DNA of 64,000 nucleotides from Candidatus Enterousia sp. (GTDB lineage Bacteria; Pseudomonadota; Alphaproteobacteria; Rs-D84), in the NCBI GenBank assembly GCA_045586565.1, contig JAZNAO010000006.1, positions 1,457 to 65,456 on the forward strand. Direction: 5' to 3'. The position numbers were made by a program, and so were the translations under genes. The notes beneath the pieces are model-generated. The model searched no databases. It worked only from the letters and a program-made list of their open reading frames with translations, and had not been told where the DNA came from. The first letter of the stretch is position 1. Each line of letters starts with the position of its first letter. Positions 15,752-55,127 of the stretch are shown one piece after another.

Positions 15752-15752
15752 A

Positions 15753-17069: not shown

Positions 17070-17089
17070 AATGTGGTATAAGTAATAAC

Positions 17090-17617: not shown

Positions 17618-18072
17618 AAAAATTTATATTTGCATTGATTGGTTTGGCTTTATCTGCACCGTCATTTGCGGCAGACACGCCTGCGCCCGCGCGCATCAGT
17701 ATTTTTTCCACCAGCACTGATTGGCAGGCAGTTACTGGTCTGCGTCTGAACGAATATAATGGCACGTTTATTCCAGACAAGAAATTGGTTGGTCGTGGTC
17801 TGGTTTTGTATTACCTGGATGGGTTTCCGTGTTATGGGTTGGGGTATGGTGTTCGCGCGTGGGTTGGCCCAGACTTTAATCATGAACATTTGCATATTGC
17901 GTGTGTTGCGGCACCCACAGAAATTAAGTTTGCATACCGCAACGCCACCCGTGATGCAGACCAGGCGACAACCACAGGAATTTTGACATGTCCGGTTGAA
18001 GGCGACGGTCGTGAATTGACAATCCGTTTGTCTGATTGTACGGTTGGCCCTGATTGGGATGAATACAGATAA
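17614..18072 (+). CDS. Secreted hypothetical protein (152 aa)
   Basis: Signal peptide MKKFIFALIGLALSAPSFA|AD, four Cys, and a 4-nt overlap with the upstream gene. Confidence 0.45.
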   Translation: MKKFIFALIGLALSAPSFAADTPAPARISIFSTSTDWQAVTGLRLNEYNGTFIPDKKLVGRGLVLYYLDGFPCYGLGYGVRAWVGPDFNHEHLHIACVAAPTEIKFAYRNATRDADQATTTGILTCPVEGDGRELTIRLSDCTVGPDWDEYR

Positions 18073-19117: not shown

Positions 19118-22100
19118 ATGTCATTTCTCAAAAATACAGTAAGTTTATTGGCGGTTTTCTGCGTTGTTCCGGCGGCTTTTGGTGCCACGGCGCGCCCCAG
19201 TGTTTTAAACACTGCGACGGCGGTTTCGGCAACTGGTGCGGTTCGTCGTGTGGCGATGCCAACGATGACATCGTATATCACTGGCTCGGCGGGTGGTGTT
19301 ACAAACAACAATAATGGCAACTCTGGTTCCAGCAACTTATTAGACAGCATTGAATGCATCGATGCATACACCGAATGTATCAAATCCGAAGATGTGTGCG
19401 GCGAAGATTTGTCAGAATGCACAACAAACGTATTGTTCCATGGCAAAATGCCCCAGTGTGTAAGCACCCTGGCCCAATGTGAACCGGATGGGGTTGATGC
19501 ATTATTTGGCACAAAGAATGTAACCGATTTGTCGTTCTATGATTCAAATAATTCTGCGGAATATGATGCCGAAGATGGTGAGGTTATTCGTTACACATAC
19601 CCAACAGACGGCAGTGTTCTGGGGCAAATGATTATATCTGCGGCGATTGAAAATCAGTATGATACACAAACATGCGTGAAACGTTATATGTCATGCTTGA
19701 ATAAAGACAGTGTTTGTGGTGCAGACTTTGAATTATGTACCGACGAACGTGAATTTAAAAAGCAGGCATTGTTCTGTGATTCAACCCTGGCCCGTTGCCA
19801 GGCAGACGGTGTTCGCGAATTATTCGGGGTTTCAAAATGGTCGCCACATAAAATGGGTGCGGATGGCAAAATCGAAGGTTCTTCCCGTGTTGGTGTGGCA
19901 ATCAAAGACGGTGCAGATTTGGCGGCGTTGAACGCGGTTTCTACCTGTTACAAGGTTGTTGAACAGTGTTTCTTGGGCGCATGTTCGGCCAATCCGTTGC
20001 GTTGTTTGGCGGGGTCGAATTTATCGACATTGACGGCGGCAAATGATATTGCGGCGGACGGTATCACAATCACATTGTCAAATGACAGTGCGCCATCAAC
20101 CCCAACAGACGTAAATCGTTATCTGCGCACATCGTGCCAGGATACAATTGGTGCAAATAAATTCTGTCACATGACATTCTTGGGCAAAAATCCAAGTAAG
20201 AAAGACTTGGCGGATGTAGATGTCCAATCAGAAGTCTTTGACGATGCAATCAGCGAACGTAAAAAATACGTTGAATCAAAAATCCAAGATTTGATGACAC
20301 AGTTCGATAAACGTGCCAAGGATAAATGTGTTGAAACAATTCGTTCATGCGCAATGCGTTCCTGTGGCGAAGGTGTCGGTTCTGTATGTTATTCATCTGT
20401 ATATGGCGCGAATGGCGGAAATACAATTGCGGGTCCGGCCACACGTCCAGATATCAAAACGGCATGTGAATCTGTTGTAAATACCGATGTGAATTGCCAA
20501 TATGCATATTCAACTGTTATAGATAATGGTGTGTATTCATACAATTACATCCAAAATTCTGTATTTGATACATTATTCCCAGAATATGCTGCCGACAAAA
20601 CAAACAATGATCCAATCGGTGTAATCGGGTCGTTAAATTCGTCCCTGTCGACCAGTTATAATGCCGCTGCTCTGGCGCAAATGAAGAAGCAATGTCAATC
20701 TGTCGCGACCAGCTGTGTTAAATCAATGTGTGGCACGGATTACCAGAATTGCTATCGCAATCGAACAGATATCTTGTCTGATTTGACCAATACGGATAAT
20801 GCAAAGTTTGATACGTCAATGAACAAGGTTGGTGGTGTTCTGGATTATACAATTGTATTGGGATTGTGCATGAACACGGTTAAAAACGCCGATGTATGTG
20901 ATGAACACCTGAAAATCCAAAAGGCCAAATTAGATTTGGAAAAGACAACGGAAAATGTATGGGGAACACAATCGTCTGTCCGTGATGGCTGGATTGATGC
21001 TGGTGGTGCCAAGAAGTTTGAAGAAGGGATGGTTCATTCCAAAGACGAAAATGGTGCCGATTTATGCACAAATGCTGCAGGGGACCAAGGTGTTTGCTAT
21101 GACGTTGATGCCAATGGTGATGTTTTTAATAAACCTGTGATGATATCTGCAGACCTGTATAAAACGAACCAGGCCACAACATCATTATTCCGTGAATTGT
21201 TGGTTGATTTAGAATACGAAGCCCAGGCGAAGTATAACGCCAAATTGACGAAACAACAGAATATGTGTCTGGCGGCAAATTCTGGTGGTGTTGTTGGCGC
21301 TGGCGATATGGGTTCAACATTCATGTGGGCAAAATTGAAAAGGGGCAAGGTTCCGGCCGATTATTCAATGAATGGTTTAACCAGTGACCAAATTGTCCCA
21401 AGTAATGAATTGTATGGTTCATTCTGCCGTGTGCGTGTGACACTGCAATCCACAGACCCAACCGTATCTGAATGGTTAAACAGTACCGAAGGTCAGAAAT
21501 ATGCAACGCGTTATTTTGCGGCGGGTGATGCATTTACATGCGGTTCATGGATACCTGTTGGCGATGAAGGAACATGCCATGACGATACCGCCGCGGGCAT
21601 CAGAAGATGCAAAGGTGGCTCAGGATTACGTGGCCTGGCGCAAAAGGTTGGCGAAGCCACATATACATACGACAAACAGAAATCCGACACAATTCTGCAA
21701 ACAATGTTGCCAGTGGTTGGATTGCTGGGTGGTGGTATTGGTGGTGCATATCTGGGCGCCGGCATCGAAGACGGTTCTGTATTCGGCGGTCTGACGGGTA
21801 AAAAGAGCACAAAATCAGACAGCAAGACAGCAAAGACTGCAAACGATAGATGTTCGAATGCCATCGATATGGCCAAAACAAAATTAGCGGAAGCAAATCC
21901 TAGCCTGGAAAGTGTAAGAAGTTTAGCCAAAACAGCGGCTGATGAATTAGAAGACATGGACAAGGTTGTGTACAAAAACCTGGAGTATTGGCCAGATGGT
22001 ATGACAACTACTGTTACTGAAACTATTTCTAAAGGAGAAGGGGAGCAAACTAAATATTATTGTGGCGGGACAGAAGTCAATACGAAAGTACCAGCACGGT

Positions 22101-22432
22101 GCGTTGGTGATAAGTTATTGGCCGATGCAAGAACAGAAATCACACCCATTTTGAATAGACTAGAAGGTTATTGTGAATCTGCGGTCGAAGACGAAGATGC
22201 CAATGCTAAAAAGAAAAAGGGTGCCGCCGCCGCGGGGGCTGTGACAACCGGTGTGATCAGCAGTGTTCTGACATGGGGCGTCACACGCAGCATCATTGAT
22301 GCACAACGCACCAAAGAACAACAGGCCGCAATTGATGAATTCATGGATTCATTGGGTTCAAAAATCAATTGTGTTGTCGGTGGGGATTCCATTGCGGTAT
22401 ATGGCGACACATTGGTCACCAGTATGGAATAA
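19118..22432 (+). CDS. Large Cys-rich secreted/membrane-anchored protein (1104 aa), unknown family
   Basis: RBS GGAG..AAGGGG and signal peptide ...VVPAAFG|A. Contains duplicated Cys modules, a Gly-rich hydrophobic segment (LPVVGLLGGGIGGAYLGAGI) and a second C-terminal hydrophobic segment. Followed by a strong terminator. Confidence 0.7.
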   Translation: MSFLKNTVSLLAVFCVVPAAFGATARPSVLNTATAVSATGAVRRVAMPTMTSYITGSAGGVTNNNNGNSGSSNLLDSIECIDAYTECIKSEDVCGEDLSECTTNVLFHGKMPQCVSTLAQCEPDGVDALFGTKNVTDLSFYDSNNSAEYDAEDGEVIRYTYPTDGSVLGQMIISAAIENQYDTQTCVKRYMSCLNKDSVCGADFELCTDEREFKKQALFCDSTLARCQADGVRELFGVSKWSPHKMGADGKIEGSSRVGVAIKDGADLAALNAVSTCYKVVEQCFLGACSANPLRCLAGSNLSTLTAANDIAADGITITLSNDSAPSTPTDVNRYLRTSCQDTIGANKFCHMTFLGKNPSKKDLADVDVQSEVFDDAISERKKYVESKIQDLMTQFDKRAKDKCVETIRSCAMRSCGEGVGSVCYSSVYGANGGNTIAGPATRPDIKTACESVVNTDVNCQYAYSTVIDNGVYSYNYIQNSVFDTLFPEYAADKTNNDPIGVIGSLNSSLSTSYNAAALAQMKKQCQSVATSCVKSMCGTDYQNCYRNRTDILSDLTNTDNAKFDTSMNKVGGVLDYTIVLGLCMNTVKNADVCDEHLKIQKAKLDLEKTTENVWGTQSSVRDGWIDAGGAKKFEEGMVHSKDENGADLCTNAAGDQGVCYDVDANGDVFNKPVMISADLYKTNQATTSLFRELLVDLEYEAQAKYNAKLTKQQNMCLAANSGGVVGAGDMGSTFMWAKLKRGKVPADYSMNGLTSDQIVPSNELYGSFCRVRVTLQSTDPTVSEWLNSTEGQKYATRYFAAGDAFTCGSWIPVGDEGTCHDDTAAGIRRCKGGSGLRGLAQKVGEATYTYDKQKSDTILQTMLPVVGLLGGGIGGAYLGAGIEDGSVFGGLTGKKSTKSDSKTAKTANDRCSNAIDMAKTKLAEANPSLESVRSLAKTAADELEDMDKVVYKNLEYWPDGMTTTVTETISKGEGEQTKYYCGGTEVNTKVPARCVGDKLLADARTEITPILNRLEGYCESAVEDEDANAKKKKGAAAAGAVTTGVISSVLTWGVTRSIIDAQRTKEQQAAIDEFMDSLGSKINCVVGGDSIAVYGDTLVTSME

Positions 22433-22459
22433 TTAAAAAAAGTTTTGCATAAACCTCCT

Positions 22460-22486
22460 AAAATCCCCCACCCGGGGGGATTTTTT
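22460..22486 (+). terminator. Intrinsic terminator after the 1104-aa gene
   Basis: TCCCCC-ACCCG-GGGGGA hairpin followed by T6. Confidence 0.75.
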
Positions 22487-22568
22487 ATCGCAGTAGCCGT
22501 CGCGGAATAATCTCCTTTGCTGGCGAAGGGGTGTCAGGCAGTGAAGGGGTAGTGGGAATTTAACAATA

Positions 22569-22652
22569 CCGCGATAAATAAAAGTTTAGTCTTGCATAAC
22601 ATTTTACAAGAATCTGTGATTCTTGTCATTGCGCGCGCAGCGTGGCAATCCA
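22569..22652 (-). repeat. Dispersed palindromic repeat arm (copy R1)
   Basis: Its reverse complement aligns almost base-for-base with 53191-53283 (CTGGATTGCCACG...ATGACAAGAATCACAGATTCTTGTAAAA...AAACTTTTATTTATCGCGG). Confidence 0.8.
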
Positions 22653-22695
22653 GTTATATGCGCGTAAAACGCGCACAATATTATGATACAATTTA

Positions 22696-22787
22696 CTGGA
22701 TCGTCACGGTCGTTTCACATCCGCGCGATGACAATTTTTGTGAACAAAAATTGTAAACAATGCATGCGCCGAACTTCTATTTATCTG
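22696..22787 (+). repeat. Dispersed palindromic repeat arm (copy F2), inverted relative to R1
   Basis: CTGGATCGTCACGGTCGTTTCAC...CGCGATGACAATTTTTGTGAACAAAAATTGTAAA...AACTTCTATTTAT. The architecture matches 53191-53283, with a covarying central hairpin. Confidence 0.65.
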
Positions 22788-22793
22788 TATAAT

Positions 22794-25591: not shown

Positions 25592-25617
25592 AAAAACGGC
25601 ATGACGCCGTTTTTTTA
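25590..25617. terminator. Bidirectional terminator between uvrD and the VirB6-like operon
   Basis: A-run, then ACGGC-ATGAC-GCCGT hairpin, then T-run. Confidence 0.65.
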
Positions 25618-26910
25618 TTTGCGTGATTCTTTGATAATTTTATACCATTCTTTGACAGACTTTTTTGCATCGCCCCATAATCTGGTCACGTCTGATTTTA
25701 ATGATGTGCCCATTGAAGAATCTATTGCGCCACCTATGTCTGTTGCAATTTGTGATGCATGACTGGCCAGATACCATGTCAACGCCATCACAAACATAGA
25801 TGTCCATATATTTGGATTATCAAATTCTGGCACCAACCCAGGATTTGTTAAATCCATAACGCCCGATAATAATGCTGTGCAAATTGCAATAACAATTGAC
25901 AATGTGACAAAGTGCAGGGCTGCATTGATAAAACGCATAATTTGTGCCTGTAAAGATTCTGTGGAAAATAACTTTACAAAACCATTATAAATATCACCAA
26001 CAATTCCCTTGTATGATGTTTGGCCCACGCACTCTGCAATTGCAGTAAAAGGCAACATTATAATCCCCAAGAATAAATCTGCAATTACACCAAATGCAAC
26101 AAATGCAAATTTCCATGCCAGATATATAAACCCACCAATCATTGCGCCACCACACAGGAATGAAAACATACTGCGTCCGATACCGTATGCCATCCATTTC
26201 CATCCAACCGCCACCGCCGTATAACAAAATCCGGATAATCGTGTTGGAATACACATAATGTTTGCTGCGGCTTCTGGGGGCAATAAATTAGATTCAGATA
26301 TATGTTCTGTGGCATACATATGAATCGCTGTGCATGTGTCTGGGATTTGTGCGCCTGCAACACTGGCTACTGCATTTAAAATTAAATCAGATATCAGTGA
26401 TGCAACGCTTAAAATTGGACTCATCACCATCATAAATGTTTCTGCCGGTCCGACATTTAACACCACCACCCACATTGCGGTTATTGCGCCTTTTTTCAGC
26501 ATTGATTTTATTGTGTCTTTAGTGTCGGCTTTGCCGGTGATTATATTATATGCCTCTAACCCCATCCAGAATGCATACATCAATATGATAAATATGATTG
26601 TAAACCGAACCAATGACGAATCCAGTATATGCCCGATATGTGAAAACGCATTCATAAATGCCAGACCGATTTTCGCTTCTATTGGGACAAACCCCACATC
26701 AAAATTTTGTATTGTATTTCCGTGAAATTTTTCAAAATCCCCAGACAGTTGCCCTATAAACAATTCTCGGTTTGCTTCCGTGGTCCATACCCCATTATCA
26801 CCGATATCTGGTAACGGTACATTTGTTTCGCCAAATGCCGGCACCGCCATAACCGTTGCGATTGCAACAAGTGCTAAATACCTACAAAGATGTTTAAATA
26901 CCTTTATCAT
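25615..26910 (-). CDS. TrbL/VirB6-like polytopic membrane protein, paralogue 4 (431 aa)
   Basis: Signal peptide and multiple TMs. The layout (hydrophobic helix - charged loop - helix ...) is shared with the four neighbours and resembles VirB6. 4-nt overlap with the upstream gene. Confidence 0.5.
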   Translation of the reverse strand: MIKVFKHLCRYLALVAIATVMAVPAFGETNVPLPDIGDNGVWTTEANRELFIGQLSGDFEKFHGNTIQNFDVGFVPIEAKIGLAFMNAFSHIGHILDSSLVRFTIIFIILMYAFWMGLEAYNIITGKADTKDTIKSMLKKGAITAMWVVVLNVGPAETFMMVMSPILSVASLISDLILNAVASVAGAQIPDTCTAIHMYATEHISESNLLPPEAAANIMCIPTRLSGFCYTAVAVGWKWMAYGIGRSMFSFLCGGAMIGGFIYLAWKFAFVAFGVIADLFLGIIMLPFTAIAECVGQTSYKGIVGDIYNGFVKLFSTESLQAQIMRFINAALHFVTLSIVIAICTALLSGVMDLTNPGLVPEFDNPNIWTSMFVMALTWYLASHASQIATDIGGAIDSSMGTSLKSDVTRLWGDAKKSVKEWYKIIKESRK

Positions 26911-28352
26911 TTATTTGTCACCACATCTGCAATTGTATCTGTAATTTTTAATGGCGCACGCCCAGTTGTTTTTATCAAATCACCTGTCCATTTACCAAAA
27001 TCAAACAATTCTGGACTGTCTTTGCCCAACATCTTGTCAATCTTTGGGCTGATTGCATAAAAGTACAAGAAGAACAAACATGCCATCATCAACAAGAAAT
27101 CCCATCCATCATCCATAAAATTAAATGCGTTTGGATACTTTCTTTCAACTTCTGCCTTGCGTGCGGTAAAGCAATTTTTAAATTTATCTTTGTCCATTTC
27201 GCCATCTACCAAAGCAACCTGTTCACATGTTGTAAACACATTCATTACAGATAATGTTTGTGCGTCTGGATTTTCGGCATGCATACCCATCATTGGTGGT
27301 AATATTGCCGTATATCCATCATTTGGTCCTGGGAAAAACGCATCTGCGGTGTATGATACCGTCGCGTATATCACCAATGTTTTCAATGTAATGGCGATAA
27401 TTCTTACTGCTGATGTAACCAGCATATTTATTGCATTCCCCAATAACCCATTTGCCTTGGCCCAGACGCCTTCGAACGCATATGATGCCAATAACAGTGG
27501 CAAAAATATAACCAAGAATACCAGTTTAAATACCACAGATAATATTTGAAAAAACAAATCAAAACCAATCAGCAAGAACATCAATACCAATGCCAATCCT
27601 GCGACCCACGTAAACGCACCGCCACCCATACCCATCCAAGAATAATTCATCAGTGAAAATCCGCCTGCGGCACCTGCCAGCATTACACTGTTTATATTTC
27701 CAACAACGCACATAAATGGTTGCAGTATTGGATTTAAAATATCATTTTCGTTTTCAGAATATTTATCATTTCTCAAATTGCATTGTGCAGAATCACTGAT
27801 ACCTGTGGCGGCCATTGATAATTCTGCCCCAAGATACATAACTGGTGTAATTGTTAGTTGTGATACTGTCTTTAAAGCGCCTGTGCCGCCCATCCCCAGC
27901 ATTCCCATTACTGCACCAACAATCAGCACACGTGCACCCTGTTTCCAGATTTTGTCGACCAGCGCATTTATTTCCAATTTCTTTTCTGTGTCGTCTAACT
28001 TCATGGCTTCTTTTGCAGAATTTAACATATGCTGAACAATACTGATGACAATAAACAACCCAAATCCCAACACCATCAATATCCAAATATTGTTTACCAT
28101 TAAATTCCAGAATTTGTCGGCTGCATTCCCGATGACTGTGAACAAATCAGAAATATATCTGCACATAAAACATCCGTTGACGTTTGAAATATTCCCGTCA
28201 GTTGCCCCCACGGCCGTTAAAAAGTTATCCAAACTGGTATACGTAATGGATGTACCGCCCAAAGATGACGACAAATACCATATCCCCAGCCCTAATGCGG
28301 CGATGATAAAGAATGCTTTGATGGCCATAACAATCAATTTTGCCTTTAACAT
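26907..28352 (-). CDS. TrbL/VirB6-like polytopic membrane protein, paralogue 3 (481 aa)
   Basis: Polytopic, with the N-proximal motif CFMCRYISDLF shared with two paralogues. Translationally coupled to its neighbours. Confidence 0.5.
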   Translation of the reverse strand: MLKAKLIVMAIKAFFIIAALGLGIWYLSSSLGGTSITYTSLDNFLTAVGATDGNISNVNGCFMCRYISDLFTVIGNAADKFWNLMVNNIWILMVLGFGLFIVISIVQHMLNSAKEAMKLDDTEKKLEINALVDKIWKQGARVLIVGAVMGMLGMGGTGALKTVSQLTITPVMYLGAELSMAATGISDSAQCNLRNDKYSENENDILNPILQPFMCVVGNINSVMLAGAAGGFSLMNYSWMGMGGGAFTWVAGLALVLMFLLIGFDLFFQILSVVFKLVFLVIFLPLLLASYAFEGVWAKANGLLGNAINMLVTSAVRIIAITLKTLVIYATVSYTADAFFPGPNDGYTAILPPMMGMHAENPDAQTLSVMNVFTTCEQVALVDGEMDKDKFKNCFTARKAEVERKYPNAFNFMDDGWDFLLMMACLFFLYFYAISPKIDKMLGKDSPELFDFGKWTGDLIKTTGRAPLKITDTIADVVTNK

Positions 28353-29542
28353 TACTTACCTTCCTTGTCGTCGTCTTTTTTTAGCACTATTTTTGCGGTA
28401 TTTGTAACCGCGCCCACCGCATTCTTGGTCAGCCCCATAATTGCATCTGCGACCTGTTCGCCATATTCTGTTTTTTCTGCGACACCAAATGCGTCCAGTA
28501 TCATTTTTGTAATCGCTTTGGATTGGTCGTAAATATAATTTAAAACGTAAATTAAAATACTGCAACTCATCAACGTCATGGATTCCAAATTTTCTGTATT
28601 CAAATCTGCGTTGTATAATTCACCTGTTGTAATTGCATTCATCAAATCGTTTACAGATACATCCGATGCACTAAAGAACTTGGCGATTACAACCATAATA
28701 ATCGTATACGTTATAACGATTGATCCCAAAGACACAATCGAATTTACCAAATTCTTTATTTGATTTATCCCGACCCCAGATCCCAATTTTTTTATCCATT
28801 CTGGTACATGTTCTGCGCCAGTGAACGCCATTGTCATCAATGATAGTGGGAAAAAGAATGCAAAGAACGCCATTGCAACAATTGCGTCTGCAAATCTGCA
28901 ACAATATCGGAAAAATAATTTTATAAATCCCCATGACAGATAAAATCCAATAAAGAACAACATGATATGCTTTAACAAACTGCCAATTCCGGTCAAAGCC
29001 TTCCATGAAAAAGCGTTATCTACGACCGCAATCCCCAGTTTTATATATGATTGGAATTGTGTGATTGTCGTCTGCATCAACAATAATATTTTATTACGCA
29101 GTTCTGGCCTAAAAAAACTATCATCTGTCATTTCTTTTGGGGTATATGGAACTTTTTCTTCGACCTGAACTGTATCCAGTTGGATTATGTTTTGTGTATA
29201 AACCGTTGTAACAGATGCAATGGGTTCGAATATTAGTGTAGATACCATTCGTGGTAATGTGACACCCGCCCCCAGCAGTCCGACAACAACAATCGAATTT
29301 AAAAATACTTTTTGTATGGATTTCTTAAAGAATAGGTCGTCCATCCCTTTTTGCATATTTTTCATCCATGCATTTGACACATACAATGCAAATAATGCAA
29401 TCAACAACATCAGACATAATTTTGCAAAATTATCATATATATACGCGGCTGCCAAAGACACAATCTGAAACAGACGGTCAAATATTGGACAACTCCAACA
29501 TTGGATTGAATTGTCTATCAAAGATGATGTCCATTCGTTCAT
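28352..29542 (-). CDS. TrbL/VirB6-like polytopic membrane protein, paralogue 2 (396 aa)
   Basis: N-terminus ...CWSCPIFDRLFQIV, followed by a TM bundle. Overlaps both neighbours. Confidence 0.5.
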   Translation of the reverse strand: MNEWTSSLIDNSIQCWSCPIFDRLFQIVSLAAAYIYDNFAKLCLMLLIALFALYVSNAWMKNMQKGMDDLFFKKSIQKVFLNSIVVVGLLGAGVTLPRMVSTLIFEPIASVTTVYTQNIIQLDTVQVEEKVPYTPKEMTDDSFFRPELRNKILLLMQTTITQFQSYIKLGIAVVDNAFSWKALTGIGSLLKHIMLFFIGFYLSWGFIKLFFRYCCRFADAIVAMAFFAFFFPLSLMTMAFTGAEHVPEWIKKLGSGVGINQIKNLVNSIVSLGSIVITYTIIMVVIAKFFSASDVSVNDLMNAITTGELYNADLNTENLESMTLMSCSILIYVLNYIYDQSKAITKMILDAFGVAEKTEYGEQVADAIMGLTKNAVGAVTNTAKIVLKKDDDKEGK

Positions 29543-30801
29543 TTCTTTTTAAACCATCCCAATGCGCTATTAAATGCGCTGGTTGTTTGTTTGATACCTT
29601 TCCACATTGTTGTGGCGTCACCATTGACCTGTCTATACAGTTTATCCATACCGCCACCGATATAATTTTCCAGTTGCTTTTGTGTCATCTGATAGATTTT
29701 ATACATCAAAAAGAATGTCAATATTGCCGACATCCATGTGACAGAATGTGTTCCAAATCCAATTGCATTTACAACTTCTGGTGTGGGCAGATTGCTGTAT
29801 GCGCTGCCCCCGGCGGCAGAAACAAATACCGAAGAATTCCATCGGAACAGTGCTTTGATTACCGCCAAATTGATGCACAGTATAAACGCACATGCAATCA
29901 TAGTGATAATCAATTGTTGTAACGCCTTGGTAATACCGCTGAATGCGGGCCAAACATCGAACCATTTATCACTGGACTTGGTCACGTATGTCAGCACATA
30001 GAACGGATATAAAATCAGTTGTACACCGAAATTAAATATTCCCTGTATAATCAGCATTGCCATAAACAGGTTACTGCCGATAAATGTGATTATTAGAATA
30101 ATCCCGGTCAATACATTCATTAAATCTTCGCCACCATGTGGAATCAATGTCAACAGCCCGCGCAATCCACGTGTCAAGAAATCAAATCCGCGTTTTATAA
30201 TCTGGTTGTTTGCGTGTGATAAATCAGATATTGGTTGCACTAAAAATTCGCATGATTCCGGATTCAACCACGCTTTTTCTGTAATGCTGGTTGGGCAATC
30301 TATTTTTTGTGCGTTGGTTCCTGTTTCGTTGATTGTCTGTGTTATTTCATGAGTATATACCGACCCCAGTTTTAAAAAAGGATTTACCAACCACTGCGTC
30401 AAGAACATCGGTGACAGTTGTAATAAAAATACAATTGCGATAAATGCGCGAAATCCAGGTTTTAGAACTTTTGTTGCGATGTCCATTGGACCGGCTTTGC
30501 CATCAGCGATTTCACCGCCCCCCGATATGTTAAAGAACGCCAGCACTTCTTTCGGGGCAAACATTTTTAACAGTCCGATTACAATAGTTATAACGAAAAA
30601 TAATATAACCAATCCTTGAATAATTCCGTTGCCCACAAAAAATTCATATCCGCCCGTGGCAACCATCATCAGCGCATCCAATATCATCGGCACAAAAGGT
30701 GCCAAATTTAATGCGTCAACAATATCTGCATGTGCGGCCCCTGGTGCGCAGAAAACCGCGACAAAACATAAGGCTGATAATATTTTTTTTAGTATATTCA
30801 T
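29539..30801 (-). CDS. TrbL/VirB6-like polytopic membrane protein, paralogue 1 (420 aa)
   Basis: Signal peptide ...CAPGAAHA|D and a polytopic body. First gene of the minus-strand four-gene operon. Confidence 0.5.
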   Translation of the reverse strand: MNILKKILSALCFVAVFCAPGAAHADIVDALNLAPFVPMILDALMMVATGGYEFFVGNGIIQGLVILFFVITIVIGLLKMFAPKEVLAFFNISGGGEIADGKAGPMDIATKVLKPGFRAFIAIVFLLQLSPMFLTQWLVNPFLKLGSVYTHEITQTINETGTNAQKIDCPTSITEKAWLNPESCEFLVQPISDLSHANNQIIKRGFDFLTRGLRGLLTLIPHGGEDLMNVLTGIILIITFIGSNLFMAMLIIQGIFNFGVQLILYPFYVLTYVTKSSDKWFDVWPAFSGITKALQQLIITMIACAFILCINLAVIKALFRWNSSVFVSAAGGSAYSNLPTPEVVNAIGFGTHSVTWMSAILTFFLMYKIYQMTQKQLENYIGGGMDKLYRQVNGDATTMWKGIKQTTSAFNSALGWFKKK

Positions 30802-30869
30802 TCTCTCTTTTTATTTTTATCTTTTCAATTATATCACATTTAATGCAAAATATGGTATACTTAAAAACA

Positions 30870-32159
30870 ATGAATTGGTTAAAAAAATTTTGGATAATGT
30901 TTTTGTCCTTTCTGCCGATTGGGGCAGGGGCGGTTGCGCCATTTGTGATAAAGGGGTTGATTGGTGCGACGGCGGTTGCTGGATTTTCCATATATCGCAA
31001 TATGTCGCCTGTAAATATGGCAGACGCATTGGAATTTTTTTCATCGTGTTGGACGTGTCAGATGTTTTCAGACATTATGGCAACAATGTCGAATATATTG
31101 CCCCCTATATATGACGGTTTGGGTGGCGCGATAATTCCGTTTGCGATAATTCTGACGGCGGTATGGTTTGCGTGGCAGATTGTCAGTGATCATATGAATG
31201 CCAAAACGCCAGAAGCATGGTCTTTTACAACAAAATTTAGCACGCATTTAATAAAATTGACAGCGGTGTGTGCACTGCTGGCGGCGCCAATTCCGCGCAT
31301 GGTGACCCAAATTGCGATTGAACCGATATTTAATGTTGGTTTATCACTAAATCGATTGGTGGCGCATGACGATAGTTTTGATTCGTGTGTTGTGTCGACT
31401 GCCTTGGTTGATCCAACATCAGACAGTGCAGATGCGGCCAATTCTGGGGTGTTTTCGCCAAAGTTACGTCATAATTTAACATGTGAATTGGCGGGTGTGC
31501 ATCAAATGACAGGTCTGGGGATGACCGTTGGGTGGACAATGTTAAATATGTCATTCGATTCGGAATATATGCATAAAATTATGTGGGCTATCCCGATTTT
31601 TCCGAACGTGATACTGTTTGTTGCGGGCGCATTGATTGTGGGGTTATTTTTCTTGGCTTTGCTGCCGATACCATTGTATTTCTTAGAAATATTCATAAAG
31701 CTATCATTGGATATGGTGATGTTACCACTGATGTTGTTGGGTTGGTTGTTTGATGGATGGGCAATATCCCTCAAAGGGGCAGGTAAAACGATTCGTTCTA
31801 TTATTGATGACGTGATAAATGGGACGCTGGGGTTGGCGGTGACGGGTGTATTTGTATCATTTGCGATAATGTTTTTGAATGCGATATTCGGTGATTGGAA
31901 TGGTGCATCTGTTTTATCGACTGCATTGACCCAAAATGATTCGAAAATTTTGATAGACGCCTTGATGATGCGCAATGACAGTTTGGTTACTATAATTCTG
32001 ATGGGATTGTTTATGGCTGCGTTTATGACAATGATTCCTGCCCTGGCGAAGTCTTTGTTTAGCATAACTATATCCACAGAATTCTATGATTCGGCAAAAA
32101 AGAACCTTGATACACTGTGGAAAGGCTTGAAAAACGTATACGCACAAATAAAAAAATAA
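30870..32159 (+). CDS. TrbL/VirB6-like polytopic membrane protein, paralogue 5 (divergent)
   Basis: The ORF is open from 30699. ATG 30870 (MNWLKKFW...) was chosen to avoid overlapping the divergent gene; ATG 30843 or 30852 are possible. Contains the motif CWTCQMFSDIM and a polytopic body. Confidence 0.5.
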   Translation: MNWLKKFWIMFLSFLPIGAGAVAPFVIKGLIGATAVAGFSIYRNMSPVNMADALEFFSSCWTCQMFSDIMATMSNILPPIYDGLGGAIIPFAIILTAVWFAWQIVSDHMNAKTPEAWSFTTKFSTHLIKLTAVCALLAAPIPRMVTQIAIEPIFNVGLSLNRLVAHDDSFDSCVVSTALVDPTSDSADAANSGVFSPKLRHNLTCELAGVHQMTGLGMTVGWTMLNMSFDSEYMHKIMWAIPIFPNVILFVAGALIVGLFFLALLPIPLYFLEIFIKLSLDMVMLPLMLLGWLFDGWAISLKGAGKTIRSIIDDVINGTLGLAVTGVFVSFAIMFLNAIFGDWNGASVLSTALTQNDSKILIDALMMRNDSLVTIILMGLFMAAFMTMIPALAKSLFSITISTEFYDSAKKNLDTLWKGLKNVYAQIKK

Positions 32160-32226
32160 AAATCAAGTGCTTTATTTAACATAGCCCCCTTTTTTGTGTG
32201 TTCCGAATCTGATATAATTCATAGCA

Positions 32227-32736
32227 ATGACAAAGTTTCCGATTCTTTATTGGTCACGCAGAACCGCTGGGGACAGCGAATATCAGTTGGCGCGCAAGGT
32301 TATAAATAATGCCACGGGTGTTATGCCGGACGTGTTGACTGATGATATTGATATTGCGGCGATATTGGCGCAAAATCCAAATGCGACGATTTACTATCCT
32401 GTGTTTTGCGGTTCAACAGGTTGGTGGGGTGAATTATTGGGGTGTGATGCGGTTGTCGTTGATAAAATGATAATATCCCCCGAATGTCAATTGATGGTTA
32501 TCGAATCGCAAAAAAATGCCAAACCGCGTGGCACGAATCAGTTATTGGCGGCTGAAATTTACCCGACCAGTGGTTTTTTCAAGAAAATGAATTCTGGGAT
32601 TGCGACGGTTGCAGATATGTTGGCGACGGACGCCGGGACAATATTGGCATTATTCTCTGGCAAGAATCAGAATCAGTTTATAAATGTATTGGAATCGACG
32701 GGCAATTCATATCTGGGATGCATTGGTCGATATTAA
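32227..32736 (+). CDS. Hypothetical protein (169 aa)
   Basis: An ORF of good length in an otherwise empty interval. I recognise no motif. Confidence 0.4.
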   Translation: MTKFPILYWSRRTAGDSEYQLARKVINNATGVMPDVLTDDIDIAAILAQNPNATIYYPVFCGSTGWWGELLGCDAVVVDKMIISPECQLMVIESQKNAKPRGTNQLLAAEIYPTSGFFKKMNSGIATVADMLATDAGTILALFSGKNQNQFINVLESTGNSYLGCIGRY

Positions 32737-33054: not shown

Positions 33055-33759
33055 ATGGAATTGCTGATTAAAGGTTCGACCGAATTAAACAAAATGTTTA
33101 TGGCGTTGCAACGTACTGCGTCTGGTCTGCGCCGTGATTTTGGAGAGGTGGAAAACCTGCAACAATCGTTGCGTGGCGCACGTGATTTTGTGCAAAAGGC
33201 ATCTGCCCGTATCGAAGAAAGTATTTTAAACGACCTGTTGTTGGTTCGTCCATCGGCGGGTTTGTTGACACCAAACGTATCGCGTGCGGGTGATGGACGT
33301 GACGAATTTGTTTTGTCATTGTCTGGTGCGTCTAATTTTGTTCGTGGCAATCCGCATTTTGCAATATCATTGGCATTGCGTTCAAATGACGAAACAAAGA
33401 TTGCGTTGGTATATTCCCCAATTGACGAAAGATTGTACTATGCAGAATCCGAACGTGGTGCATATATATTCTCGGCGTATCATTCTGCCCGAATTAAGGT
33501 GTCTAATTTGTCAGACCCGGCGGATGTAACGGTTGGTTACAATACATCTGATAATCGTGAAACGATTGGTGATGTTCGTCGTACGGGATGTCCGGCATTG
33601 GATTTGGCATGGGTTGCGGCGGGTAAATTAGATGCATATGTATCAGACCCACTGGATTTTGCAGAAATTGCGGCGGGCGACCTGATTGTCCGCGAAGCAG
33701 GCGGCCGAATTGAAATGATGACTGACCTGGTTGCAACGAACGGTCATATTGAAATTTAA
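33055..33759 (+). CDS. suhB: Inositol monophosphatase/SuhB-family protein with degenerate active-site motifs
   Basis: The family backbone is present (RRDFGEVENLQ, NF..G.PHFAISLAL, ALDLAWVAAGKLDAYV, VREAGG). The DPxDGT motif is replaced by LSLSGAS. Confidence 0.7.
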   Translation: MELLIKGSTELNKMFMALQRTASGLRRDFGEVENLQQSLRGARDFVQKASARIEESILNDLLLVRPSAGLLTPNVSRAGDGRDEFVLSLSGASNFVRGNPHFAISLALRSNDETKIALVYSPIDERLYYAESERGAYIFSAYHSARIKVSNLSDPADVTVGYNTSDNRETIGDVRRTGCPALDLAWVAAGKLDAYVSDPLDFAEIAAGDLIVREAGGRIEMMTDLVATNGHIEI

Positions 33760-33785
33760 AATCCCCCATTTGGGGGATTTTTTTG
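33757..33785 (+). terminator. Intrinsic terminator after suhB-like gene
   Basis: ATCCCCC-ATTT-GGGGGAT hairpin followed by T7. Confidence 0.8.
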
Positions 33786-33799
33786 AGTTCAAGTTTCTT

Positions 33800-33862
33800 A
33801 GATAAATAAAAGTTTATCGAAGTATTTTTTACAATTTTCTGACAAGAAAATTGTCATTCCTG
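33800..33862 (-). repeat. Dispersed palindromic repeat arm (copy R2)
   Basis: GATAAATAAAAGTTTA...TTTTACAATTTTCTGACAAGAAAATTGTCATT has the same architecture as 22569-22652. Confidence 0.6.
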
Positions 33863-33993
33863 CTCCGGGCCCCGCAAAAATTGTAAATTTTTGTGGGTGG
33901 GCATAGGCAGGAACAGGGTTTATAAAATTTACATACTCTCTGGAATACGTAATTGGTGCGCGTTGCGCACGGTTAAGAGACCCTATTACCGCC

Positions 33994-34059
33994 TGCGCGG
34001 TAATGACAAGAATTAAAAATTCTTGTAAAATGTTATGCAGATTTAAACTTTTATTTAAG
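33994..34059 (+). repeat. Dispersed palindromic repeat arm (copy F3), inverted relative to R2
   Basis: ...GGTAATGACAAGAATTAAAAATTCTTGTAAAATGTTATGCAGATTTAAACTTTTATTTAAG. It runs directly into the -35 box of the downstream promoter. Confidence 0.7.
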
Positions 34060-34061
34060 TA

Positions 34062-34090
34062 TTGATTCAACTTTTCAAAAATGATAAAAT
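34062..34090 (+). promoter_or_regulatory. Sigma70-type promoter of Cys-rich gene A
   Basis: TTGATT, a 17-nt spacer, then TAAAAT. The same geometry and -10 box recur at 53299 and 55128. Confidence 0.6.
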
Positions 34091-34358
34091 ACATTTGTCG
34101 GTGGGATTTTTCACCGATGGGGTGTGGAAACCCGTTATCTAAGCGTCTATGCACGATTGCATAACGCGCCAATGGCGTGTTTTTTGTGCAGTGTATGGAT
34201 GAAAATTTTTTTCTCCTGATCTTATGTGGTCAGGAGGGCTGCGAATATATTGAATAAGCACACAATTCTTAGATATTGTTTCCAACCTCCTGGCCACCTA
34301 TCTTTTATGGTGGTTTTTGTTTAATTTGCGTATGCAGAACGAAAGGGAGGAAAGTAAT
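34091..34358 (+). promoter_or_regulatory. Conserved structured leader (attenuator-like), copy A
   Basis: Hairpins at 34098-34117 and 34120-34133, and hairpin plus T-run at 34164-34185. Alternative segments: S1 34213-34221, S2 34226-34238, S3 34286-34298, S4 plus T5 34309-34318. Conserved in copies B and C. Confidence 0.6.
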
Positions 34359-35102
34359 ATGCAAAAATTTTTAAAACTAACCGGCGTATCAGTTTTGGCA
34401 ATCGTTGCCGCAACGGGCGCCAATGCCGCGGGATACACCTGTGAAGAATTGATTGAATACACAGCATGTAATGATGGGTGGTATTTAAACGATGGTGATT
34501 GTATAGAAAGCACAACATGTCCATCGGGCAGTTATTTACGTCCGTTTTGTTCAGTGAGCGATTGTGGTGTGAGTTATGATTCTGAGACCGAAGAATATAC
34601 TTGTTGTGATGGTGATTATGTTGCAAACCTGGAATGCATACAATGCCCATCTGTTGGTCTGACTGACAAAGACGGCAAAGTGGTGTCGGTTAAATCACAG
34701 CCTGGCTCAATGGGTGTTGGTTCGTGCTATATTGACCCGAATGCATATTTCAAGGATAGCACGGGGACATATCATTATAAGTCCAATTGTTCTGTGCGTT
34801 TCTGGGAAACATCCCCAGACACAGAAGAAGAATGTACCAGTCTTGGTTTTGAATGGGTATATACAAGTGGTGAATCAGATTCTTATTATGTTTGTGCGTT
34901 GAACATGCGGATTAGTGAACAGTTGGGTTTAATAAAGACAGAAGAAGAATGTAACGCGGCAGCTGAAAAAATATATGGCTTGGTATGGAAAGATGAAGGA
35001 GATTATTATTATTCCAGATGCGAAACCATAAACTACGAAGAGAGTTACTTTATTTTTAGGGATGAATGGTATGTTTTTGGTGATCCTATTTCTCACTCCT
35101 AA
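34359..35102 (+). CDS. Secreted Cys-rich protein, family member A (247 aa)
   Basis: RBS GGGAGGAAAG and signal peptide ...ATGANA|AGYTCEELIEYTAC. Shares the N-terminal module and the CP..GLTDKDG...SC.ID...F.D..G.Y.YK..C module with the protein at 55429. Confidence 0.75.
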   Translation: MQKFLKLTGVSVLAIVAATGANAAGYTCEELIEYTACNDGWYLNDGDCIESTTCPSGSYLRPFCSVSDCGVSYDSETEEYTCCDGDYVANLECIQCPSVGLTDKDGKVVSVKSQPGSMGVGSCYIDPNAYFKDSTGTYHYKSNCSVRFWETSPDTEEECTSLGFEWVYTSGESDSYYVCALNMRISEQLGLIKTEEECNAAAEKIYGLVWKDEGDYYYSRCETINYEESYFIFRDEWYVFGDPISHS

Positions 35103-35105
35103 AAT

Positions 35106-35134
35106 AAAAAATCCCGCAATCGCGGGATTTTTTA
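35106..35134. terminator. Bidirectional terminator between Cys-rich gene A and fabZ
   Basis: A-run, then ATCCCGC-AATC-GCGGGAT hairpin, then T6. Confidence 0.75.
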
Positions 35135-53137: not shown

Positions 53138-53162
53138 AATCCCCGCCACCCGGCGGTTTTTT
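53137..53162 (+). terminator. Intrinsic terminator after thioesterase gene
   Basis: CCGCC-ACCC-GGCGG hairpin followed by T6. Confidence 0.7.
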
Positions 53163-53190
53163 CAGCGACAAATAATAATGATACTATGGA

Positions 53191-53283
53191 CTGGATTGCC
53201 ACGTTCGTTTCACTCCCTCGCGATGACAAGAATCACAGATTCTTGTAAAAATAGTTGTATAACTAAACTTTTATTTATCGCGG
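53191..53283 (+). repeat. Dispersed palindromic repeat arm (copy F1, solo)
   Basis: CTGGATTGCCACGTTCGTTTCACTCCCTCGCGATGACAAGAATCACAGATTCTTGTAAAA...AAACTTTTATTTATCGCGG. Near-identical in reverse complement at 22569-22652. Confidence 0.8.
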
Positions 53284-53298
53284 TATTCTATTTACCTG

Positions 53299-53327
53299 TT
53301 GACCTAAAATTTTAATATTGATAAAAT
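53299..53327 (+). promoter_or_regulatory. Sigma70-type promoter of Cys-rich gene B
   Basis: TTGACC, a 17-nt spacer, then TAAAAT. Confidence 0.6.
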
Positions 53328-55067: not shown

Positions 55068-55127
55068 GAGATACGAGATATGAGACATGTGACAGGAATA
55101 TTTATCAATGTGTCCTTATTTTATTTA

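What the first reader, a model, noticed from the sequence alone, without database searches (positions are those of the whole stretch)
33800..34090. Second inverted repeat pair whose right arm supplies the upstream flank of the Cys-rich gene promoter
Seen in sequence:
- Arms at 33800-33862 (reverse) and 33994-34059 (forward) bracket ~130 bp full of further small palindromes (GTCATTCCTGC...GCAGGAAC, GTGCGC-GTT-GCGCAC, ATTACCGC-CTGC-GCGGTAAT).
- The forward arm ends with AAACTTTTATTTAAG, 2 nt before the -35 box TTGATT.
- At 53191-53283 a solo forward arm ends 15 nt before the -35 box TTGACC. At 55110-55127 only the A/T-rich tail (TTATTTTATTTAT) remains before TTGACG.

Inference: either the repeat arm carries or creates an UP-element/promoter that has been co-opted for the Cys-rich gene family, or the cassette (arm plus promoter plus leader plus gene) moves and duplicates as one unit.
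Basis: partly seen in the sequence, partly recalled or inferred. Interest (0 to 1): 0.55.

Follow-up and report, generated by a model that had tools for sequence, protein, structure and literature searches.

The report
Palindromic repeat beside a surface-gene promoter
A 266-bp palindromic "junk" repeat sits just upstream of the promoter of a cysteine-rich secreted-protein gene in a tiny-genome gut bacterium. Only its last ~14-30 bases consistently accompany this promoter type; the rest is dispensable, so this is an ordinary kind of repeat with one conserved end.

Summary
Window 33795-34060 is a ~266-bp nested palindrome, and both ends carry the exact 14-mer TAAACTTTTATTTA. A second full copy lies at 22566-22791 and a half copy at 53189-53286.

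The family occurs in gut Alphaproteobacteria MAGs (order Rs-D84, Ca. Enterousia-like) as 207-226-bp paired-arm elements.

The -35, the -10 and a ~260-nt attenuator leader belong to the gene cassette, not to the repeat:
- A close relative (flanking genes 91-95% nt identical) has the same rpmE-suhB-[Cys gene]-fabZ-lpxD locus, with promoter and leader but no element.
- More distant leaders have no arm or tail at all.

The terminal 14-mer, however, lies within 25 nt of the -35 in 10 of 13 clade cassettes, four of them as a solo tail.
- In seven cassettes it matches 9-10 of 11 specified positions of the distal UP-element half-site, in the canonical register.
- The window's own three cassettes match only 4-6 of 11.
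- 22 of 28 paired element ends adjoin no cassette.

Verdict: a new MITE/REP-like repeat family. Its A/T-rich end is a conserved and possibly UP-like promoter flank, while the body is optional. Interest is modest. The leader RNA noticed in passing is the more intriguing object.

The parts
33055..33759 (+). Upstream gene, inositol-monophosphatase family (SuhB-like). Its 3' side is a synteny breakpoint among relatives.
   Evidence: Pfam PF00459, E 2.5e-26. Orthologs are 85-97% identical and have three different downstream neighbours.
33758..33788 (+). Intrinsic terminator of the upstream gene (AAAATCCCCCATTTGGGGGATTTT + T-run). It is one of a family of near-identical terminators in the window.
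   Evidence: Terminator scan; repeat family D3.
33795..34060 (.). Whole palindromic repeat element, ~266 bp, with no coding potential of its own. The 124-aa ORF at 33798-34172 (-) is an artefact of the repeat.
   Evidence: Paired arms by profile search. ssDNA fold -53.1 kcal/mol, z -8.3. Absent from the orthologous locus L148-L150.
33795..33876 (-). Left arm (subtype B). Terminal 14-mer at 33803-33816, A/T hairpin at 33831-33854, GTCAT at 33853-33857.
   Evidence: nhmmer E 1.4e-16. 78% identical to the 22R arm.
33857..33913 (.). G+C hairpin TTCCTGC/GCAGGAA whose loop holds an extra nested hairpin (33870-33897). This insertion makes the copy ~40 bp longer than the 207-226-bp copies elsewhere.
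   Evidence: Sequence, fold, comparison with the arms of other genomes.
33956..33970 (.). Central hairpin GTGCGC-GTT-GCGCAC. An equivalent hairpin is present in the element at 22566-22791 and in elements of other genomes.
33978..34060 (+). Right arm (subtype A). G+C hairpin at 33985-34004, ATGAC at 34003-34007, A/T hairpin at 34007-34025, terminal 14-mer at 34044-34057.
   Evidence: nhmmer E 4.5e-14. 88% identical to the 22L arm and 80% to the 53 arm.
34003..34031 (+). Outward-facing sigma-70-like site inside the subtype-A arm (ATGACA-17-TAAAAT, 10/12). The other two A arms carry the same kind of site.
   Evidence: Consensus scans. This is a pattern match only, and the spacing is not conserved in arms of other genomes.
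34044..34057 (+). Terminal 14-mer TAAACTTTTATTTA ('tail'). This is the only part of the repeat that consistently accompanies the cassette promoter.
34062..34090 (+). Cassette promoter: -35 TTGATT, 17-nt spacer, TG-n extended -10 TAAAAT. Predicted start near 34097.
   Evidence: Scan. Homologous promoters at 53299-53327 and 55128-55156 and in ten cassettes of relatives.
34097..34358 (+). ~260-nt conserved leader. It has a 5' hairpin, GGGGTGT-N4-ACCC, and an optional terminator-like hairpin at 34163-34187. Further on come CTCCTGA 34214-34220 / TCAGGAG 34231-34237, the near-invariant 21-mer at 34241-34261 and CCTCCTGGCC at 34287-34296. It ends with a terminator at 34294-34319 and an SD at 34345-34350.
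   Evidence: Alignments. Two mutually exclusive structures, both with covariation. Sub-threshold Rfam hits to sRNA-Xcc1 and isrK.
34359..35102 (+). Cys-rich secreted protein gene (247 aa, signal peptide). Member of a large hypervariable family.
   Evidence: 152 homologs, many with the PF07699 Ephrin_rec_like domain.
22566..22791 (.). Second full copy of the element, in the opposite A/B arm order, between two convergent genes. No cassette adjoins it.
   Evidence: Fold z -5.1.
53189..53286 (+). Half element: a solo subtype-A arm plus part of the centre from 53165. It lies upstream of the second cassette (promoter 53299-53327, gene 53568-55040).
   Evidence: nhmmer E 2.5e-13.
55068..55127 (+). 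Possible remnants of a decayed element upstream of the third cassette (promoter 55128-55156, gene 55429-56376). They comprise heptamer-repeat flank GAGATACGAGATATGAGACATG, GAATA-TTTATC, and TTATTTTATTTA.
   Evidence: Sequence compared with element flanks in L004, L015 and L143. Not statistically significant on its own.

Best explanation
The 33795-34060 region is a non-coding, non-autonomous palindromic repeat of the MITE / REP-BIME kind. It is specific to a clade of reduced-genome gut Alphaproteobacteria (Rs-D84, Ca. Enterousia-like). Here it sits between the suhB terminator and the promoter of a Cys-rich secreted-protein gene.

Shown:
- The element is a nested palindrome bounded by inverted copies of TAAACTTTTATTTA.
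- It is dispersed, both within the window's genome and in relatives.
- Its body is absent at the orthologous locus of a close relative, where the promoter and leader remain.
- The sigma-70-type promoter (TTGATT-17-TGnTAAAAT) and the ~260-nt attenuator leader belong to the gene cassette.
- The terminal 14-30 nt of the repeat is a near-constant companion of this cassette's promoter in the clade, with or without the rest of the element.

Inferred:
- The A/T-rich tail is kept there because it works as a promoter-upstream module, UP-element-like and contacting the RNA polymerase alpha C-terminal domain.
- The element body is selectively neutral and comes and goes, either by insertion or by deletion through TTTT microhomology.
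- The unit tail + promoter + leader + gene is duplicated and exchanged between loci by recombination.
For: Repeat family.
- Five arms in the window, with E down to 1e-21.
- 12 true hits in 8 Alphaproteobacteria MAGs, almost all with an inverted partner arm, giving 207-226-bp elements.
- Strong folds, z -8.3 and -5.1.

Body dispensable.
- L148-L150 have rpmE-suhB-[Cys gene]-fabZ-lpxD with flanks 91-95% nt identical.
- There the terminator runs straight into TTTTATTTATCTTTGCAT-TTGCAT-17-TAAAAT, and the leader is 85% identical.
- 0 of 5 protein-anchored cassette loci have a full element.

Promoter is cassette-borne.
- It is conserved with the leader in all 13 clade cassettes.
- It is also present in distant leaders that have no arm or tail: L087, L090, L093, L145.

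Tail association.
- The 14-mer (<=1 mismatch) gives 39 hits in 223 kb.
- 10 of 13 clade leaders have it within 25 nt of the -35, including 4 solo tails.

UP-like position.
- Seven cassettes have a constant 9-nt gap between the tail and the -35.
- This puts AAACTTTTATT at -57..-47, matching AAAWWTWTTTT at 9-10 of 11 positions. The mean match peaks at register shift 0.

Unit exchange.
- Junction subtypes are shared between non-syntenic loci of different genomes: w34/L143 and w53/L139.
- At the syntenic locus the CDS is only 46% identical and the -35/spacer 9 of 20 identical, although the flanks are conserved.
Against: - In the window itself the tail is out of the canonical UP register, with gaps of 4, 21 and 0 nt, and matches only 4-6 of 11 positions.
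- The proximal UP half-site is not matched in any copy.
- No transcription data exist, so the start site and any effect of the tail are untested.
- Direction is unresolved. Tails at cassettes are more widespread than full elements. The tail could therefore be the older feature that elements target or grow from, rather than something the arm 'supplies'.
- No target-site duplication and no cognate transposase were found, so the way the element spreads is unknown.
- The sample of full elements next to cassettes was gathered by searching for arms, which biases it.
Confidence: 0.6

Rival explanations
1. Target-site homing or palindrome growth. The 14-mer tail is an ancestral part of the cassette's promoter-upstream region. 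The palindromic elements either insert preferentially next to a sequence resembling their own end, or arise there by inverted duplication. On this view the promoter flank attracts the repeat rather than the repeat supplying the flank.
For: - Solo tails at cassettes occur in genomes or loci where no full element was seen: L136, L139, L143 and L148.
- Element interiors are highly variable while the 14-mer ends are constant. Examples are the A/B arm subtypes, arms made of heptamer repeats in L011 1227-1370, and a minimal tail-to-tail 40-bp palindrome at L139 9590-9640.
- Cassette-adjacent elements carry the arm subtype typical of their own genome.
Against: - The two 14-mers are inverted, not direct, so they are not a target duplication.
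- L143 and window 55068-55127 keep outer-flank remnants of a left end (heptamer repeats + GAATAC) next to the tail. This is easier to explain by deletion of a former element.
- Most element ends (22 of 28) are not at cassettes.
Confidence: 0.2
2. Hybrid or outward promoter carried by the element, as with Correia elements or IS ends. Either the element end contributes the TTG of the -35 (consensus end ..GTATT + G), or the subtype-A arm's own ATGACA-17-TAAAAT site drives transcription out of the element into the leader.
For: - All three subtype-A arms in the window have an outward sigma-70-like site scoring 9-10 of 12, and two of the three face Cys-rich genes.
- The element-end consensus ..TATTTA-N5-GTATT(C/G) overlaps the -35 TTGATT in w34 and L143.
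- Similarity between the window and its positional ortholog L148 drops to 9 of 20 in the -35/spacer but is 85% from the -10 onward.
Against: - The arm-internal site has non-functional spacing (19-20 nt) in arms of the other genomes.
- The third A arm, at 22601-22629, points into the 3' end of a convergent gene.
- Cassettes without any element still have a complete -35/-10.
- These are consensus matches only.
Confidence: 0.12
3. Invertible switch (inverton). The inverted 14-mers are recombination sites, and flipping the ~230-bp interior moves the promoter-bearing A arm toward or away from the surface-protein gene. This would give phase variation.
For: - Inverted repeats flank a short segment upstream of a hypervariable secreted-protein family in a gut bacterium.
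- The two arms differ, and only the A arm has a promoter-like site.
- The arm order relative to the leader differs between cassettes: L009 versus L014, and the 33795-34060 element versus the 22566-22791 element.
Against: - A conserved complete promoter lies outside the repeats.
- The same element occurs between convergent genes (22566-22791).
- The body is absent at the orthologous locus.
- No recombinase or invertase domain was found among 39 window proteins scanned.
- Both orientations were never seen at one and the same locus.
Confidence: 0.05

Closest known systems
Correia repeat-enclosed elements (CREE / NEMIS) of Neisseria
   Same: - Small (100-160 bp) non-coding elements with terminal inverted repeats.
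- Hundreds of intergenic copies.
- Can generate promoters at either end and so affect the neighbouring gene (PMC2649163).
- Presence/absence differences occur between close strains.
   Different: - No sequence similarity.
- Here the arms are ~85 nt and the whole element is a nested palindrome of 207-266 bp.
- No TA target duplication and no IHF site could be shown.
- The -35/-10 used here lie outside the element, and only an A/T-rich flank is shared.
REP / BIME / REPIN elements of Enterobacteria and Pseudomonas
   Same: - Extragenic palindromes placed after terminators, including between convergent genes.
- Mosaic combinations of hairpin modules.
- Clade-specific sequence families.
   Different: - REPs are 20-40-nt G+C-rich units.
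- Association with a RAYT transposase could not be tested.
- The constant unit here is an A/T-rich 14-mer at the outer ends.
UP element of rrnB P1-type promoters (A/T-rich -59 to -38 region bound by RNA polymerase alpha-CTD; consensus recalled from established literature, Estrem et al. 1998)
   Same: - A/T-rich block immediately upstream of the -35.
- In seven cassettes of relatives it matches the distal half-site AAAWWTWTTTT at 9-10 of 11 positions in the canonical register.
   Different: - The window copies are out of register and match 4-6 of 11.
- The proximal half-site is not matched.
- No functional data.
IS- or MITE-derived hybrid promoters (an element end supplies a -35)
   Same: The element-end consensus ..GTATT abuts or overlaps the TTG of the -35 in the w34/L143 junction type.
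   Different: Cassettes without an element have a full promoter of their own, so the contribution of the end is at most partial.
sRNA-Xcc1 (RF02221), isrK (RF01394) and C4-type leader RNAs of prophages and islands (relevant to the leader, not the repeat)
   Same: - Outer helix enclosing two hairpins, followed by CACC + U-run.
- In the literature, members lie upstream of ORF6N/antirepressor-type genes and cluster with isrK and C4 RNAs (10.1101/2020.03.17.996009; PMC12189769).
- One distant leader here (L076) precedes what looks, by eye, like a Bro-N/antirepressor-type gene. Another (L145) precedes a small protein that looks, by eye, like an HTH regulator. Neither was tested against domain models.
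   Different: Scores are below Rfam thresholds: 32 bits against a cutoff of 53, and 21 against 50. Here the RNA is a cis leader with a terminator, upstream of Cys-rich secreted proteins.

Membership tests
MITE (miniature inverted-repeat transposable element) | Terminal inverted repeats | tested here: met
   Perfect 14-nt inverted termini, with ~85-nt arms detected by profile search.
MITE (miniature inverted-repeat transposable element) | Small size, no transposase gene inside | tested here: met
   207-266 bp. The only ORF across the element, 33798-34172 (-), is repeat-derived.
MITE (miniature inverted-repeat transposable element) | Multiple dispersed copies in a genome | tested here: met
   2.5 copies in 64 kb of the window. 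2-3 elements were seen in MAG321 and in SIG48.
MITE (miniature inverted-repeat transposable element) | Target-site duplication flanking each copy | tested here: not met
   No direct repeat is shared by the flanks of the 13 elements inspected. A TA inside the conserved end cannot be told apart from the repeat itself.
MITE (miniature inverted-repeat transposable element) | Presence/absence polymorphism at orthologous sites | tested here: met
   The element is absent at the syntenic locus L148-L150. Whether this reflects insertion or deletion is undetermined.
MITE (miniature inverted-repeat transposable element) | Cognate autonomous IS with the same ends | not testable with these tools
   No transposase domain among 39 window proteins. 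The whole genome was not available and the collection scans were exhausted.
REP/REPIN | Short G+C-rich palindromic unit mobilised by a RAYT transposase | tested here: inconclusive
   G+C hairpins are present inside the arms, but the conserved unit is A/T-rich and no RAYT could be searched for.
Correia element (CREE) | Characteristic 26-bp Correia inverted repeat and TA duplication | tested here: not met
   The terminal sequence here is TAAACTTTTATTTA. It is unrelated to the Correia terminal repeat (recalled from the literature; PMC2649163 for the properties). No TA duplication is demonstrable.
UP element | A/T-rich sequence at -59..-38 matching NNAAAWWTWTTTTNNNAAANNN | tested here: inconclusive
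   Distal-half matches, out of 11 specified positions: 9-10 in seven relatives' cassettes, 8 in L143, 7 in L148, 6 in L139, and 4-6 in the three window cassettes. The proximal half is not matched.
UP element | alpha-CTD-dependent stimulation of transcription | not testable with these tools
   Requires in vitro transcription or reporter assays.
Invertible promoter switch (inverton) | Both orientations of the IR-flanked segment at one locus, and a site-specific recombinase | not tested
   No reads were available. No recombinase domain in the window proteins scanned. The arm order differs only between different loci.
Rfam sRNA-Xcc1 (for the leader) | Score at or above the curated gathering threshold (53 bits) | tested here: not met
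   32.2 bits, E 5e-4, over model positions 1-87. No gathering-level hit in the window or in 15 related loci.

The most novel reading that the evidence does not exclude
The A/T-rich 14-mer (within GAATAC-N5-TAAACTTTTATTTA-N5-GTATTC) may be a dedicated recombination or recognition site. It would mark a swappable surface-protein expression cassette, made of tail + promoter + C4/sRNA-Xcc1-like attenuator leader + hypervariable Cys-rich gene. The palindromic elements would then be by-products or invertible forms of that site. Together this would give these sub-1-Mb gut epibionts an integron-like or inverton-like way to shuffle or switch their secreted repertoire.
Probability: 0.1. Interest if true: 0.75.

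Novelty: new member of a known kind. Interest (0 to 1): 0.38.

Why it matters
Rs-D84 / Ca. Enterousia bacteria have genomes under about 1 Mb (PMC12306168). Retained repeats and a multi-copy, hypervariable, leader-controlled Cys-rich secreted-protein family therefore stand out, and they probably bear on how these organisms interact with hosts or partner cells.

Knowing that only the 14-30-nt tail, not the whole palindrome, goes with the promoter has two practical uses. It tells annotators where the real regulatory unit begins. It also gives a simple, testable promoter module.

As a repeat next to a promoter, this is a familiar situation and not surprising in itself.

Tried and rejected
- Looking up the window's own proteins to recover the source contig failed; they were not on record.
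- The single metagenome scan, using the leader 21-mer, was swamped by a high-copy eukaryote-like repeat in termite-gut metagenomes. It yielded only four bacterial leaders, so an unbiased leader sample had to be obtained through protein homologs instead.
- Rfam at gathering thresholds found nothing but tRNAs.
- A search for target-site duplications gave none.
- Reading 55116-55127 as a significant arm remnant was rejected on statistics and kept only as a contextual possibility.
- An IHF site (WATCAANNNNTTR) in the tail/junction was considered by eye and dropped because of 2-3 mismatches.
- A leader peptide in the leader was considered and rejected because the frame is not conserved between copies.
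- Pfam scans of 39 window proteins found no transposase or recombinase.
- An exact-sequence literature search for the 21-mer found nothing.
Full report
**1. What is at 33800-34090**

- A profile built from the repeat arms places two inverted arms at 33795-33876 (-) and 33978-34060 (+), with E 1e-13 to 1e-16.
- Each arm has the same plan, read from the inside outward:
  - a G+C hairpin (right arm: ATTACCGC-CTGC-GCGGTAAT, 33985-34004);
  - the pentamer ATGAC;
  - an A/T hairpin (right: CAAGAAT..ATTCTTG; left: ACAATTTTC..GAAAATTGT);
  - TAAAA;
  - the terminal 14-mer TAAACTTTTATTTA.
- The two arms belong to different subtypes, which I call A (right) and B (left). Only the 14-nt termini are perfectly complementary.
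- A gapped alignment of the arms has 45 of 54 identical positions and beats all 500 shuffles.
- The left G+C hairpin (TTCCTGC 33857-33863 / GCAGGAA 33907-33913) carries an extra nested hairpin in its loop. A central hairpin GTGCGC-GTT-GCGCAC lies at 33956-33970.
- As single-stranded DNA the element folds at -53.1 kcal/mol, against -25.1 +/- 3.4 for shuffles (z -8.3).
- The exact 14-mer occurs four times in the window, and 0 of 100 shuffles reached the observed number of near-matches.

**2. It is a dispersed repeat family**

- A second full copy lies at 22566-22791 with the opposite A/B order, between two convergent genes (fold z -5.1).
- A half copy, an A arm plus part of the centre, lies at 53165/53189-53286.
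- A pattern scan of one genome per species found 15 matches. Twelve are true members, in eight uncultured gut Alphaproteobacteria MAGs from sheep, deer and other hosts.
- In those loci nearly every arm has an inverted partner, giving elements of 207-226 bp. The exceptions are the nested arms in L003 and the short pair in L013. The 14-mer ends are constant and the arm subtypes are genome-specific.
- SuhB orthologs at 85-97% identity are labelled Alphaproteobacteria or Ca. Enterousia. This group is order Rs-D84, with genomes mostly under 1 Mb (PMC12306168).
- No target-site duplication is visible. No transposase or recombinase domain was found in 39 window proteins.

**3. The promoter and leader belong to the gene, not to the repeat**

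- The paralogous promoters are TTGACC-17-TAAAAT at 53299-53327 and TTGACG-17-TAAAAT at 55128-55156.
- All three are followed by a conserved ~260-nt leader and a signal-peptide Cys-rich gene. One of the three genes matches PF07699 Ephrin_rec_like, and the family has at least 152 homologs.
- The same promoter + leader + gene arrangement occurs in relatives: L005, L008, L009, L011 (twice), L014, L136, L139, L143 and L148.
- More distant leaders have their own promoters but no arm or tail: L087, L090, L093 and L145 (twice).

**4. The decisive comparison**

A relative whose rpmE, suhB and fabZ are 91-95% nt identical has the same gene order: rpmE-suhB-[Cys gene]-fabZ-lpxD-nusA (L148-L151).

- Its suhB-to-Cys-gene spacer is 353 nt instead of 600 nt.
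- The terminator T-run leads directly into TTTTATTTATCTTTGCAT, then TTGCAT-17-TAAAAT and the leader. The 266-bp element is missing.
- From the -10 onward the leader is 85% identical. The -35/spacer is only 9 of 20 identical, and the Cys-rich protein only 46% identical.

So the element body is dispensable for this promoter. In addition, the whole stretch from terminator to gene end is a replaceable, hypervariable module between conserved flanks.

Insertion and deletion cannot be told apart here. The short TTTT match between the terminator T-run and CTTTTATTTA would allow a simple deletion. The 3' side of suhB is also a synteny breakpoint in other relatives.

**5. What does travel with the promoter is the tail**

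- In 223 kb of clade DNA the 14-mer (<=1 mismatch) occurs 39 times.
  - 28 hits are paired ends of 14 elements, and six of these ends abut a leader.
  - 11 hits are solo, and four of these abut a leader.
- Ten of 13 clade leaders have the 14-mer within 25 nt of the -35. The other three have degenerate versions: w55, L011a and L148.
- In the five cassette loci reached through protein homologs, which are unbiased with respect to the repeat, none has a full element. Three have a ~30-nt tail, one has an 11-nt tail and one has none.
- Conversely, 22 of 28 paired element ends have no cassette next to them. An arm as such is therefore not a promoter carrier.

**6. Is the tail an UP element?**

- Seven cassettes have a constant 9-nt gap between TATTTA and the -35: L005, L008, L009, both L011 cassettes, L014 and L136.
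- That gap puts AAACTTTTATT at -57..-47. There it matches the distal UP half-site AAAWWTWTTTT at 9-10 of 11 positions, and the mean match is highest at register shift 0. The consensus is from established literature, recalled.
- L148 has the same 9-nt spacing but its tail is eroded, and it matches only 7 of 11.
- The window's own cassettes have gaps of 4 nt (w34), 21 nt (w53, with a second partial tail at 4 nt) and 0 nt (w55). They match only 4-6 of 11.
- The proximal half-site is not matched anywhere.

The UP-like reading is therefore plausible for the family but weak for this particular copy, and it is untested.

**7. Other readings**

(a) The element may contribute promoter parts.
- All three A arms in the window carry an outward ATGACA-17/18-TAAAAT-like site.
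- The element-end consensus ..GTATT overlaps the TTG of the -35 in the w34/L143 junction type.
- However, arms in other genomes have 19-20-nt spacings, and element-free cassettes have full promoters.

(b) The tail may be ancestral, and elements may home to it or grow from it.
- Tails are more widespread than full elements.
- Interiors are very variable, down to a 40-bp tail-to-tail palindrome in L139 and arms made of heptamer repeats in L011.
- On the other hand, L143 and window 55068-55127 retain left-flank remnants, which suggests that a former element was deleted there.

(c) An invertible switch is conceivable. The repeats are inverted, the arms are asymmetric, and the arm order differs between loci. 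But a complete promoter lies outside the repeats, the same element sits between convergent genes, and no recombinase was seen.

**8. Comparison with known systems**

- Functionally the closest analogue is the Correia element of Neisseria, a small inverted-repeat element that can create promoters at its ends and alter neighbouring gene expression (PMC2649163). There is no sequence relationship, and the defining Correia repeat and TA duplication are absent.
- REP/BIME/REPIN elements share the post-terminator location and the mosaic hairpin build.
- I therefore file this as a new member of the MITE/REP-like kind. The particular twist is that only the terminal 14-30 nt forms a conserved promoter-upstream module of one gene family.

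**9. By-product: the leader**

The leader's 3' domain can adopt two mutually exclusive conserved structures.
- Structure 1 is a CTCCTGA/TCAGGAG hairpin plus an intrinsic terminator.
- Structure 2 is a three-way junction in which GGTCAGGAGG pairs with CCTCCTGGCC and encloses two hairpins, one of them holding a near-invariant 21-mer. On this structure 89.7% of cells are paired and 8 pairs show changes on both sides. It exceeds all 500 shuffles and all slid controls.

It scores below threshold against sRNA-Xcc1 (32 bits against 53) and isrK. In the literature these RNAs lie upstream of prophage ORF6N/antirepressor-type genes and cluster with C4 RNAs.

This looks like an undescribed attenuator related to that group. 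It deserves its own analysis.

Noticed in passing
window 34097-34358, 53334-53567, 55163-55428; also L005, L008, L009, L011, L014, L136, L139, L143, L145, L148, L087, L090, L093: A conserved ~260-nt 5' leader with two mutually exclusive, covariation-supported structures: a hairpin plus terminator, versus a three-way junction holding the near-invariant 21-mer TGYGAATATATTGAATAAGCA. There is no Rfam family at threshold; the weak hits are to sRNA-Xcc1 (32 bits) and isrK. It also occurs upstream of genes that look, by eye, like HTH and Bro-N/antirepressor types in other bacteria. It is probably an undescribed attenuator.
   Followed up: partly
L016-L135 (metagenome loci): More than 110 copies of a eukaryote-looking interspersed repeat in termite-gut metagenomes share the exact 21-mer of the bacterial leader. 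They also share GGAGGG just 5' of it and CCTCC 3' of it, which is the same outer-helix and two-hairpin layout. No Rfam family matches. Whether this is chance or real homology is unresolved.
   Followed up: no
window 55068-55090; L004 864-930; L011 4022-4050; L015, L008, L009, L014 and L001 element flanks: Runs of ~7-nt tandem units lie between the outer ends of elements and the neighbouring gene terminators. The units are CATGTCT/CATATCT/CCTGTCT, CACTAAC/CACTTAC, or GCACTTT/GAACTTT. In L011 1227-1370 such units form the arms of a palindrome bounded by the same 14-mers.
   Followed up: no
window 9153-9185, 22454-22486, 33752-33784, 35102-35134, 53130-53162, 55035-55067, 56372-56401: The intrinsic terminators are nearly the same sequence at many genes (AAAATCCCCC-N4-GGGGGATTTTTT). 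They form a repeat family of their own.
   Followed up: no
window 33759-34359 versus L148, L152, L155, L163: The 3' side of suhB is a synteny breakpoint among close relatives. It is followed by the Cys cassette and fabZ-lpxD (window, L148), by an adenylate-kinase-like gene and rpsA (L152), or by a penicillin-binding protein and mraY (L155, L163).
   Followed up: partly
window 34359-35102 versus L148 4558-5526: At the same syntenic locus, with flanks 91-95% nt identical, the Cys-rich proteins are only 46% identical and differ in length (247 versus 322 aa). The family is hypervariable or exchanged by recombination between paralogs.
   Followed up: partly
L139 9590-9640: A minimal 40-bp palindrome made only of two 14-mer tails back to back (ATAAATAAAAGTTTAGCG-GA-CGCTAAACTTTTATTTAT), directly after the stop codon of an SLT-domain gene.
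   Followed up: no
window 13174-18072, 19118-22432 and 25615-32736: Long runs of ORFs of 150-1100 aa with no Pfam match in an otherwise housekeeping region of a reduced genome.
   Followed up: no
window 33798-34172 (-): A 124-aa ORF runs across the whole repeat element and into the leader. It is most likely an artefact that gene callers could mis-annotate. A 45-aa ORF was called inside the leader of L148.
   Followed up: no
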